From assembly GCF_013167455.1 (NCBI RefSeq), contig NZ_CP038328.1: a stretch of 64,000 nt of DNA; one strand, 5' to 3'. Source of the DNA: Escherichia coli O157:H7. Lineage in GTDB: Bacteria > Pseudomonadota > Gammaproteobacteria > Enterobacterales > Enterobacteriaceae. Positions 6,819 to 7,058 of the stretch are shown piece after piece. The stretch's first letter is position 1. Each line of letters begins with the position of its first letter. Both the position numbers and the translations under genes were made by a program. The notes below the pieces were generated by a model, which was given only the letters and a program-made list of their open reading frames with translations, made no database searches and was not told the DNA's origin.

Positions 6819-7058
6819 TCTGTCCCCCTCTCCTGTCTGATGTCTGAATCTGTTTATGCCAGAAAACAACAGGCACCCCGGAGGGTGCCTGTGTCATGAC
6901 GGAATAAAATTTCTGAAACTCTTCACATTTCCGGCAATTGCCTGTAGCCGCAATAATGACGCTGCATTACTTTTTTGATGCCTGAAAAATAACTCCATAA
7001 CGTTAATCTTCATCGTTCTCTCCCGCAGCTCCGCTAACTCTGCGGGATTTTTTTATTT

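What the first reader, a model, noticed from the sequence alone, without database searches (positions are those of the whole stretch)
6819..7058. 240-bp insert between tail genes I and J with two hairpins and a 39-aa ORF
Lambda I and J are adjacent. Here the gap holds a 9-bp-stem hairpin (6870..6891), a plus-strand terminator (7022..7054) that would block antisense transcription into the tail operon, and a short minus-strand ORF (6894..7013, MKINVMELFFRHQKSN...) with RBS GGGAGAG.
Basis: seen in the sequence. Interest (0 to 1): 0.35.

Follow-up and report, generated by a model that had tools for sequence, protein, structure and literature searches.

The report
Known prophage small-RNA gene between tail genes
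The 240-bp spacer between tail genes I and J is not a small protein gene: it holds an already published Hfq-dependent regulatory small RNA (EcOnc22/23/24 of E. coli O157, a relative of EPEC PasB), transcribed antisense to the tail operon.

Summary

- **Identity.** The spacer (6819-7058) is base-for-base identical to the I-J spacers of Sakai prophages Sp15, Sp14 and Sp11. After correcting for the genome-version shift, the Hfq-CRAC peaks EcOnc22/23/24 map there on the plus strand (Tree 2014: ~85-nt northern band, destabilised without Hfq).
- **Family.** It is 75% identical to PasB of EPEC E2348/69. The PasB northern probe matches the "plus-strand terminator" hairpin, so that hairpin is the sRNA's own terminator.
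- **The ORF.** The 39-aa ORF is a mirror image of the sRNA seed. Its ATG is missing in 24 of 63 variants, and where present the frame runs 12-56 codons.
- **Upstream elements (inferred).** There is a conserved -10 hexamer and an invariant CRP-like site (TGTGA-N6-TCAGA) at fixed spacing.
- **Second hairpin.** The 6869-6892 hairpin is a sense-strand terminator placed just before J.
- **Arrays.** Some prophages stack two or three such sRNA cassettes between I and J.

Verdict: already known; modest extra value.

The parts
6819..7058 (.). I-J intergenic spacer (240 bp), the whole inserted cassette
   Evidence: It is 100% identical to the I-J spacers of Sakai Sp15, Sp14 and Sp11 and to VT1-Sakai 14701-14940.
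6964..7054 (+). sRNA gene (EcOnc22/23/24 sequence; PasB family). Predicted primary transcript about 91 nt; the alternative or processed 5' end at about 6979-6980 gives about 76 nt
   Evidence: The PasB northern probe matches the terminator hairpin of close homologues on the tail-gene strand, so the RNA is antisense to the tail genes. The EcOnc22 Hfq peak maps to about 6970-7042 (+) after the version-shift calibration. MFE is -20.3 kcal/mol, z = -4.1.
7021..7054 (+). Rho-independent terminator of the sRNA (stem UCCCGCAG/CUGCGGGA plus U7), ending 4 nt before the I stop codon
   Evidence: It is the only conserved helix in 32 variants, with a G-C to A-U compensatory change in 3 of them.
6991..7013 (+). 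Conserved single-stranded candidate seed motifs: AACUCCAUAAC (AACUCCUUAAC in most alleles, anti-Shine-Dalgarno-like) and UUAAUCUUCAU
   Evidence: Alignments. Zhu et al. 2026 place the predicted PasB seed just upstream of the terminator.
6952..6957 (+). -10 hexamer AATAAT (TATAAT in most alleles)
   Evidence: The hexamer at a fixed 24 nt after the CRP-like core is TATAAT in 19 and AATAAT in 11 of 38 unique variants; 35 of the 38 fit nATAAT or TATCAT. In E2348/69 it forms an 11/12 sigma-70 promoter, TTCACA-16-TATAAT, on the PasB strand.
6968..6973 (+). Alternative -10 (TACTTT; TAnnnT in all alleles) inside the conserved GCRTTA box. It would place the 5' end at about 6980, which matches the RNA-seq 5' end of PasB
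   Evidence: Which of the two -10 elements is used is not resolved.
6909..6930 (+). CRP-like binding site (core TCTGAaactctTCACA at 6912-6927, which reads TGTGA-N6-TCAGA on the other strand)
   Evidence: The core matches 9 of 10 bases and the left half AAATGTGA matches 8 of 8. Both half-sites are invariant in all 16 BLAST-derived homologues, while the middle of the N6 varies. Spacing to the promoter elements is fixed despite 20 different spacer sequences. The site is repeated with each cassette in tandem arrays.
6861..6892 (-). Sense-strand (tail-operon direction) intrinsic-terminator-like hairpin ACAGGCACCC-UCCG-GGGUGCCUGU plus UGUUUUCU, about 50 nt upstream of the J start
   Evidence: Paired cells are 98.1% on the minus-strand RNA against 95.6% on the plus strand, with one C-G to U-A compensatory pair. 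The following GTTTT is conserved.
6894..7013 (-). 39-aa ORF (MKINVMELFF...). Judged spurious: a by-product of the sRNA sequence on the opposite strand
6834..6847 (-). Two copies of the heptamer TCAGACA just upstream of the J ribosome-binding site; copy number varies among relatives
   Evidence: Alignments (2 copies here, 3 in L006, 4 in L083).
3339..6818 (-). Tail tip / host specificity gene J (GTG start at 6818-6816)
7059..7736 (-). Tail assembly gene I

Best explanation
The spacer is a self-contained small-RNA cassette (a non-coding 'moron') inserted between tail genes I and J of a lambdoid prophage.

Shown, directly or through published data on the identical sequence: an Hfq-dependent sRNA of roughly 76-91 nt is transcribed from the window plus strand, antisense to the tail operon. 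It ends at the intrinsic terminator 7021-7054, which abuts the I stop codon. This RNA is EcOnc22/23/24 of E. coli O157:H7 Sakai and a divergent allele of PasB of EPEC E2348/69.

Inferred: like PasB, it acts in trans as an Hfq-dependent base-pairing regulator. It would use the conserved unstructured stretch AACUCC(A/U)UAAC...AAUCUUCAU just 5' of the terminator. The more 5' body differs between alleles, which would give different target sets.

Inferred: its promoter (-10 at 6952-6957, possibly also 6968-6973) is driven or boosted by cAMP-CRP bound at the invariant TGTGA-N6-TCAGA site at 6912-6927. The sRNA would then be made in lysogens when glucose is absent.

Inferred: the hairpin at 6869-6892 is a sense-direction intrinsic terminator. 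It stops ordinary (not Q-modified) transcription from running out of the cassette into J, while Q-antiterminated late transcription reads through.

The 39-aa ORF is not a gene.
For: Identity with EcOnc22-24:
- The spacer is 240/240 identical to the Sakai Sp15, Sp14 and Sp11 I-J spacers.
- Tree 2014 Table S2 lists EcOnc22, 23 and 24 on the + strand of exactly these three prophages, with a ~85-nt northern band that is destabilised in the hfq deletion.
- The same three intergenic regions rank 40-49 among Hfq-bound intergenic regions.
- In NC_002695.2 coordinates all three peaks sit at the same offset in their spacers.
- The shift from version 1 to version 2 was calibrated at +137 to +146 with AgvB at 1.94 Mb and +123 to +130 with StxS/tR' at 2.93 Mb. 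This puts the peak at window ~6970-7042 (+).

Relationship to PasB:
- Pearl Mizrahi 2021 Table S6 gives coordinates, strand, 83-nt length and probe AATCCCGCAGTGATCGCGGAGCT.
- PasB lies in the 240-bp I-J spacer of prophage PP6, antisense to the tail genes.
- It is 64/85 identical to the window sequence.
- PasB had 37 RIL-seq interactions, and its table-S2 log2 fold changes are -6.8 and -2.4, which I read as the hfq-deletion and activating-versus-nonactivating comparisons.

Structure:
- Only the terminator helix is conserved, with a compensatory change; the body is unstructured and A/U-rich.

Promoter and CRP-like site:
- TTCACA-16-TATAAT (11/12) on the PasB strand in EPEC.
- A conserved -10 hexamer and fixed spacing to the CRP-like core.
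- Half-sites invariant while the centre of the N6 varies.
- The site is duplicated with every cassette in 2- and 3-cassette arrays.
- PasB is higher in the non-activating condition, where the CRP-repressed sRNA Spot 42 is about 5-fold lower.

Sense terminator.
Against: - No expression data could be examined directly; the link to EcOnc22 rests on a coordinate calibration with about 10-15 nt of uncertainty.
- Reads in three or more identical copies cannot be assigned to one prophage.
- The window allele lacks a recognisable -35, and the promoter scan found no sigma-70 promoter at its threshold.
- The CRP-like site is centred at -44.5 (if the TSS is ~6964) or -60.5 (if ~6980), not exactly at the canonical -41.5 or -61.5.
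- Its right half is TCAGA, which loses one key C, and it is never TCACA in any allele. That is odd if CRP affinity were the only selective force.
- A Cra-like reading (TGAA-N4-TTCA) is also possible.
- A 9/10 core match alone is expected about 4 times by chance in 64 kb (my calculation).
- The strand preference of the 6869-6892 hairpin rests on only 10 one-sided changes (7 against 3).
- No targets are known for the O157 allele.
Confidence: 0.85

Rival explanations
1. A protein-coding moron: the 39-aa minus-strand ORF (6894-7013) is translated from the late transcript or from its own promoter and is the functional product. The two hairpins would be its flanking terminators.
For: The ORF exists, with an upstream purine-rich GGGAGAG. 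Two phage records annotate different 'hypothetical proteins' in the same spacer. Small morons inside tail operons are known, for example HK97 gp15 (my knowledge).
Against: The aligned start codon is lost in 24 of 63 unique variants. ORF length varies from 12 to 56 codons through frameshifts, and the validated EPEC locus has only 22 codons. The two annotated hypothetical proteins are at different positions and lengths. There is no Pfam hit. Neither the peptide nor its coordinates appear in the held text of the Sakai Ribo-seq small-gene supplements. RefSeq annotates nothing there. Nucleotide conservation is explained by the sRNA on the other strand.
Confidence: 0.03
2. A cis-acting antisense RNA. 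Its main job would be to pair with the perfectly complementary I-J region of the late tail mRNA, triggering RNase III/E processing or changing J expression or mRNA stability. Conversely, the abundant late mRNA could sponge the sRNA on prophage induction. Trans targets would be secondary.
For: The sRNA is fully complementary to about 90 nt of the late transcript by construction. The cassette is kept at this one junction in thousands of prophages. A stable hairpin lies at the 5' side of the would-be J fragment.
Against: PasB has 37 Hfq-dependent trans interactions in RIL-seq. The sRNA body is highly variable between alleles while I and J are conserved, and cassettes are stacked in arrays, which fits diversification of trans targets. 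The late operon is silent in most lysogenic cells, where the sRNA is expressed. No data exist on I-J mRNA processing.
Confidence: 0.1
3. A passive transcriptional insulator: two back-to-back terminators that only block stray transcription in both directions between I and J, with no functional RNA product.
For: Terminator-like hairpins exist on both strands.
Against: This does not explain the conserved promoter elements, the invariant CRP-like site at fixed spacing, or the conserved single-stranded motifs between them. It also does not explain the published Hfq binding, the discrete ~83-85-nt RNA and the RIL-seq partners.
Confidence: 0.02

Closest known systems
EcOnc22 / EcOnc23 / EcOnc24 (Tree et al. 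2014, Mol Cell; E. coli O157:H7 Sakai prophages Sp15, Sp14, Sp11)
   Same: The DNA sequence of the whole spacer is identical. It is on the same strand (+, antisense to the tail genes). The Hfq-CRAC peak falls on the predicted sRNA body after coordinate calibration. Published as a ~85-nt RNA destabilised without Hfq.
   Different: Nothing in sequence. The window appears to be another prophage copy: it also carries AgvB, and its J is intact whereas J of Sp15 in Sakai is split. Tree et al. gave only peak coordinates, with no gene boundaries, promoter, function or link to PasB.
PasB (Pearl Mizrahi et al. 2021, Sci Adv; Zhu, Shabalina and Storz 2026, bioRxiv), EPEC E2348/69 prophage PP6
   Same: Same locus (a 240-bp I-J spacer), same antisense orientation, same terminator, same upstream CRP-like block and same sense hairpin. 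Both are Hfq-dependent RNAs of about 83-85 nt.
   Different: Only 75% identical (64/85). The 5' half of the body differs, and AACUCCUUCAC is AACUCCAUAAC here. The EPEC allele has a near-consensus -35 (TTCACA) that the window allele lacks. Neither PasB paper mentions EcOnc22-24 as homologues.
AgvB / AsxR 'anti-sRNAs' (Rfam RF02702, RF02703)
   Same: Prophage-encoded, Hfq-binding, short, with a variable 5' part and a conserved 3' terminator. AgvB is also present in this window at 27076-27137.
   Different: They lie at the PR' moron site downstream of Q, not in the tail operon, and are 51-60 nt. No sequence or covariance-model similarity: there is no Rfam hit in 6000-8000 even at E <= 1.
CRP-activated core sRNAs CyaR and McaS (my knowledge of the literature)
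   Same: The proposed logic is the same: an Hfq-dependent sRNA switched on by cAMP-CRP when glucose is absent.
   Different: No sequence relationship. CRP control here is only inferred from a conserved site and from the growth-condition dependence of PasB.
Morons of lambdoid phages (Juhala et al. 2000; for example the HK97 gp15 moron in the tail operon; my knowledge)
   Same: An autonomous promoter-gene-terminator unit inserted between two adjacent phage genes and expressed from the repressed prophage.
   Different: The product is a non-coding RNA transcribed against the operon, and the unit can be stacked in arrays.

Membership tests
EcOnc22-24 / PasB prophage sRNA family | Located in the I-J intergenic spacer of a lambdoid prophage, transcribed antisense to the tail genes | tested here: met
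   PasB coordinates and probe were mapped onto E2348/69. EcOnc22-24 are on the + strand where I and J are on the - strand. The window has the same orientation as Sakai.
EcOnc22-24 / PasB prophage sRNA family | Sequence homology to the described members | tested here: met
   240/240 identity to the Sp15, Sp14 and Sp11 spacers, and 64/85 identity to the PasB RNA. The window sequence sits within a continuum of 44 unique alleles.
EcOnc22-24 / PasB prophage sRNA family | 3' Rho-independent terminator with a U-tract (Hfq-binding module) | tested here: met
EcOnc22-24 / PasB prophage sRNA family | Expressed as a discrete ~83-85-nt RNA that binds Hfq and needs it for stability | not testable with these tools
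   Published for the identical sequence (Tree 2014 Table S2) and for PasB. No raw expression data could be examined here.
Small protein-coding gene (39-aa ORF) | Start codon and reading frame conserved among homologues | tested here: not met
   ATG is absent in 24 of 63 variants, and ORF length varies from 12 to 56 codons.
AgvB/AsxR anti-sRNA families (Rfam) | Match to the covariance model; location at the PR' moron site | tested here: not met
   No Rfam match at E <= 1. The location differs.
CRP-dependent promoter (class I at -61.5 or class II at -41.5) | CRP consensus site TGTGA-N6-TCACA | tested here: met
   9/10 core match and 13/16 over the two 8-mers. The half-sites are invariant across alleles while the centre of the N6 varies. 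By my calculation, the chance of a 13/16 match within the 240-bp spacer is about 0.002.
CRP-dependent promoter (class I at -61.5 or class II at -41.5) | Site centred at a canonical distance from the transcription start | tested here: inconclusive
   The centre is at -44.5 or -60.5 depending on which -10 is used. The TSS is not known.
CRP-dependent promoter (class I at -61.5 or class II at -41.5) | CRP-cAMP binding and crp-dependent expression | not testable with these tools
   Only indirect support: PasB is lower in the medium where the CRP-repressed sRNA Spot 42 is higher.
Moron (autonomous insert in a phage operon) | Own promoter and own terminator, absent from the prototype phage at that junction | tested here: inconclusive
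   The terminator is met. The promoter is 11/12 in the EPEC allele, but in the window allele it is below the scan threshold. That I and J are adjacent in lambda is from my knowledge and was not tested.
Intrinsic terminator (sense hairpin 6869-6892) | G+C-rich stem followed by a U-tract on the transcribed strand | tested here: met
   10-bp stem with 7 G-C pairs, followed by TGTTTTCT. The GTTTT is conserved. Actual termination was not tested.

The most novel reading that the evidence does not exclude
The I-J junction of lambdoid prophages may be a dedicated landing site for a modular sRNA cassette: terminator, exchangeable seed body, -10 element and an invariant CRP-like operator. The cassette occurs in many alleles, with EcOnc22-24 and PasB being two of them, and can be stacked two or three deep. 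This would give lysogens a glucose-responsive, prophage-specific set of Hfq regulators. Because each RNA is perfectly antisense to the late tail mRNA, it would be switched off (sponged) or would act on I-J processing when the prophage is induced. Neither the EcOnc22-PasB equivalence, the CRP-like operator nor the arrays are mentioned in the papers I could read.
Probability: 0.4. Interest if true: 0.5.

Novelty: already known. Interest (0 to 1): 0.27.

Why it matters
The practical point is annotation. This spacer is left blank by RefSeq, or given ad hoc 'hypothetical proteins', in thousands of E. coli prophages (1840 of 5426 complete genomes, up to 10 copies each). It has no Rfam model, although it encodes an experimentally validated Hfq-dependent sRNA. 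Recognising that EcOnc22-24 (EHEC) and PasB (EPEC) are alleles of one cassette lets the two data sets, CRAC/CLASH and RIL-seq, be read together. If the conserved CRP-like operator is functional, these prophage sRNAs would tie host catabolite status to regulation of host and virulence genes in EHEC and EPEC lysogens, and this is easy to test. None of it overturns current understanding.

Tried and rejected
1. AgvB/AsxR hypothesis. A CA-rich stretch next to the hairpin suggested a GcvB mimic. Rejected: those sRNAs sit at the PR' moron site, and Rfam gives no hit in 6000-8000 even at E <= 1.
2. Taking the EcOnc22 coordinates at face value. In NC_002695.2 they would fall on the 6842-6902 hairpin region. 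Calibration with AgvB and StxS showed that the published coordinates refer to NC_002695.1 and are shifted by about +128 to +140.
3. The 39-aa ORF as a gene. Rejected.
4. A second, sense-strand sRNA running from a promoter overlapping the TATAAT to the 6869-6892 terminator. No conserved -10 or -35 exists on that strand (the TTATAA-type hexamers lack the conserved T at position 6), so it was dropped. It is not excluded as a processed 3' fragment of the late transcript.
5. A sigma-54 or IHF reading of the conserved block. No match on inspection.
6. A second IMG/VR scan anchored on the sRNA terminator (CTGCGGGATTTTTT), meant to test conservation of the CRP block without ascertainment bias. It returned mostly unrelated environmental hits. 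Only one new true homologue appeared, and it does carry TCTGA-N6-TCACA. The unbiased evidence therefore rests on the 16 BLAST-derived loci.
7. The pattern AATGTGA-N6-TCACATT with 2 mismatches missed the site, which has 3 mismatches in the outer positions.
8. Consensus folding found no conserved structure in the sRNA body beyond the terminator.

Full report
**1. The observation**

The tail genes lie on the minus strand. The I-like ORF ends at 7059. J begins with GTG at 6818-6816, following GGAGAGGGGGACA, and these are the boundaries annotated in phage VT1-Sakai.

- a 10-bp hairpin at 6869-6892;
- a plus-strand terminator at 7021-7054;
- a 39-codon minus-strand ORF at 6894-7013.

The hairpin is followed on the minus strand by TGTTTTCT, so the scan scores it as a minus-strand terminator. 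Both halves of the spacer fold much better than shuffled sequence, with z = -4.1 and -4.9.

**2. The spacer is widespread and unannotated**

Homologues of the 240 bp occur at 5559 places in 1840 of 5426 complete E. coli genomes, with a median of 2 and up to 10 copies per genome. Identity ranges from 70% to 100%. They are also present in 147 phage records, mostly Stx-converting phages. RefSeq annotates nothing in the spacer. Two phage records call different hypothetical proteins there. Rfam has no family for it.

**3. What it is**

Table S6 of Pearl Mizrahi et al. 2021 lists the sRNA PasB of EPEC E2348/69. It is 83 nt, in prophage PP6, on the minus strand at 1466343-1466261, between E2348C_1436 and 1437, with northern probe AATCCCGCAGTGATCGCGGAGCT. 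That interval is the 240-bp I-J spacer of PP6, and the RNA runs antisense to the tail genes. The probe is an exact match to the tail-gene strand of the terminator hairpin in the close homologues of the window's spacer.

The window allele is 64/85 identical to PasB. PasB is Hfq-dependent, is higher in the non-activating growth condition, and had 37 RIL-seq partners.

For the window's exact sequence there is older evidence. Tree et al. 2014 (Table S2) list three homologous Hfq-CRAC peaks, EcOnc22, EcOnc23 and EcOnc24, on the + strand of Sakai prophages Sp15, Sp14 and Sp11. EcOnc22 gave a ~85-nt northern band that is destabilised in the hfq deletion. The intergenic regions ECs2161-2162, ECs2718-2721 and ECs2942-2945 rank 40-49 among Hfq-bound intergenic regions. 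The I-J spacers of these three prophages are each 240/240 identical to the window spacer.

The published coordinates refer to NC_002695.1, whereas I could only read NC_002695.2, so I calibrated the shift with two landmarks:

- AgvB1, whose Rfam match is at 1941920-1941981 in version 2 against a published peak at 1941783-1941835. This gives +137 to +146.
- StxS/EcOnc15. The PR'-to-tR' distance of 258 nt reproduces Sy et al. 2020, giving +123 to +130.

With a shift of +128 to +140, the EcOnc22 peak falls at window ~6970-7042 on the plus strand. That is the sRNA body just 5' of, and running into, the terminator. Neither PasB paper mentions EcOnc22-24 as homologues.

**4. The ORF**

I collected 74 unique spacer variants from 16 BLAST-derived loci plus an IMG/VR motif scan. 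Among 63 variants that are unique from the aligned start codon onwards:

- the start is ATG in 39 and ACG, ACA or GCG in 24;
- where ATG is present, the frame closes after anywhere between 12 and 56 codons because of indels that are not multiples of three;
- the EPEC locus that makes PasB has 22 codons.

There is no Pfam match. Neither the peptide nor its coordinates occur in the held text of the supplements of the Sakai Ribo-seq small-gene study, although repeated regions are hard to map in such data. The conserved ATGAAGAT and (A/T)AGGAGTT are the reverse complements of the conserved sRNA motifs AAUCUUCAU and AACUCCU(U/A). The "RBS" GGGAGAG is the 3' arm of the sRNA terminator read on the other strand. 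The ORF is a mirror artefact.

**5. Anatomy of the sRNA gene**

A consensus fold of 32 alleles keeps only the terminator helix (7 bp, with a G-C to A-U compensatory change in three sequences). The rest is A/U-rich and unpaired, as in many Hfq-dependent sRNAs. The conserved elements are:

- a 5' GCGUUA box followed by a U-run;
- AACUCC(U/A)UAAC, which is anti-Shine-Dalgarno-like;
- UUAAUCUUC(A/G)U next to the terminator.

The segment between them comes in at least six very different versions, and these are recombined in mosaic fashion with different terminator loops.

**6. Promoter and the conserved block**

The most conserved part of the spacer is AAATGTGAAGAnnTTCAGAAnTTTTAT on the tail-gene strand. 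On the sRNA strand this lies upstream of the gene and reads as a CRP-type site:

- the core is TGTGA-N6-TCAGA (9/10 match), and the left half AAATGTGA matches 8/8;
- the only variable positions are in the middle of the N6, which CRP does not contact (my knowledge);
- both half-sites are invariant in all 16 loci obtained by BLAST, that is, without selecting on the motif.

Exactly 24 nt downstream lies the -10 hexamer: TATAAT in 19 and AATAAT in 11 of 38 unique variants, with 35 of the 38 fitting nATAAT or TATCAT. The GCRTTA box lies 36 +/- 1 nt downstream. This spacing holds although the intervening spacer has 20 different sequences.

In E2348/69 the scan finds TTCACA-16-TATAAT (11/12) on the PasB strand. 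The window allele has AATAAT and no -35, and falls below the scan threshold.

Two readings of the start site remain open:

- TSS ~6964, giving a 91-nt RNA with the CRP-like site centred at -44.5;
- a second TAnnnT element at 6968-6973, giving a TSS at ~6980 and a 76-nt RNA with the site centred at -60.5. This 5' end matches the PasB 5' end derived from RNA-seq.

The northern sizes (83 and ~85 nt) do not decide between them.

In support of CRP control, PasB is lower in the activating condition, where the CRP-repressed sRNA Spot 42 is about 5-fold higher. This is circumstantial. The right half-site is never TCACA, and a Cra-like TGAA-N4-TTCA reading cannot be excluded.

**7. The other hairpin**

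ACAGGCACCC-UCCG-GGGUGCCUGU followed by UGUUUU is nearly invariant. Its rare changes include one C-G to U-A double change. Of ten one-sided changes, seven keep a G-U pair on the minus-strand RNA, against three on the plus strand. Overall pairing is 98.1% on the minus strand and 95.6% on the plus strand. This is a weak but consistent preference for the tail-operon strand, as is the conserved T-run.

In ExPEC-type prophages (L010-L012) this segment is replaced by about 190 bp of unrelated sequence that again contains a sense-strand hairpin plus T-run. In prophages with two or three cassettes the hairpin occurs only once, next to J.

I infer that it is a sense-direction intrinsic terminator. It would keep ordinary transcription that leaves the cassette or the I gene from entering J in the lysogen, while Q-modified polymerase reads through during lytic growth. 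This step is inference only.

**8. Arrays**

L075 carries two complete cassettes between I and J, and L033 carries three. Each consists of terminator, body, -10 and CRP-like block, and each has a different body. The three-cassette spacer is present at >= 80% coverage in 43 of 5426 complete E. coli genomes; the top-listed strains include several named STEC. That the CRP-like block is duplicated with each unit is the best argument that it belongs to the sRNA promoter.

**9. Comparison and verdict**

The element is the published sRNA EcOnc22/23/24 and a member of the PasB family. It is not related to the AgvB/AsxR anti-sRNAs, which lie at PR' and have different covariance models. It works like a non-coding moron.

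What I could add beyond the literature I read:

- the EcOnc22-PasB equivalence;
- the gene boundaries in this window;
- the evidence against the ORF;
- the conserved CRP-like operator with fixed geometry;
- the sense terminator;
- the existence of cassette arrays.

Interest is low to moderate.

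Noticed in passing
L033 8190-8890 and L075 about 10400-10920 (IMG/VR loci); also 43 complete E. 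coli genomes: Some prophages carry two (L075) or three (L033) complete sRNA cassettes in tandem between I and J. Each cassette has its own terminator, a different body, a -10 element and the CRP-like block; the sense hairpin occurs only once, next to J. The three-cassette spacer is found at >= 80% coverage in 43 of 5426 genomes; the top-listed strains include several named STEC.
   Followed up: partly
L010, L011, L012 (for example NZ_CP014495.1 SaT040), I-J spacer of about 343 bp: In ExPEC-type prophages the J-proximal part of the spacer (hairpin plus J leader) is replaced by about 190 bp of unrelated sequence. This has another sense-strand terminator-like hairpin (CCCCGGTATC-TGCT-GATACCGGGG TTTCTCTTT) and an ATG-initiated frame that starts right after the CRP-like block. 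Whether that frame is a gene was not examined.
   Followed up: no
window 6834-6847 (minus strand TCAGACA x2): A heptamer TCAGACA just upstream of the J ribosome-binding site is present in 2 copies here, 3 in L006 and 4 in L083. This is a small variable-number tandem repeat in the J leader.
   Followed up: no
window 27076-27330, 29767-29942, 36755-37220, 42069-42247, 46557-46674, 50052-50147, 55133-55249: Rfam gathering-threshold hits elsewhere in the window: AgvB (27076-27137 +) directly abutting STnc100 (27138-27330 -), sok, DicF, IsrK, C4 antisense RNA, RalA, FnrS, McaS and an ALIL pseudoknot (IS element). The window therefore spans an AgvB-carrying lambdoid prophage next to a Rac-like region and core sRNA genes.
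   Followed up: no
NC_002695.1 versus NC_002695.2 (Sakai), checked at 1.94 Mb and 2.93 Mb: The coordinates in Tree et al. 2014 Table S2 are offset by about +137 to +146 (at AgvB1) and +123 to +130 (at StxS) relative to the current RefSeq version. Used uncorrected, they place EcOnc22-24 on the wrong element of the spacer.
   Followed up: yes
window 6922-6951 compared with L018 666-693: The EPEC PasB allele has a near-consensus -35 (TTCACA, 16-nt spacer) that the O157 allele in the window lacks (TTCCGG region). The two alleles may therefore differ in basal strength and in dependence on the upstream activator site.
   Followed up: partly
window 3339-6818 compared with VT1-Sakai (AP000400.1) J: J is one intact frame here: the listed ORF is 1176 codons from an upstream TTG, or about 1159 from the annotated GTG. 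In Sakai Sp15 it is annotated as two fragments 'truncated by a mutation', and in strain TR01 the J gene is shorter (2856 bp). The flanks are 98.75% identical to Sakai Sp15 over 2 kb, so the window is a related prophage copy, not Sp15 itself.
   Followed up: no
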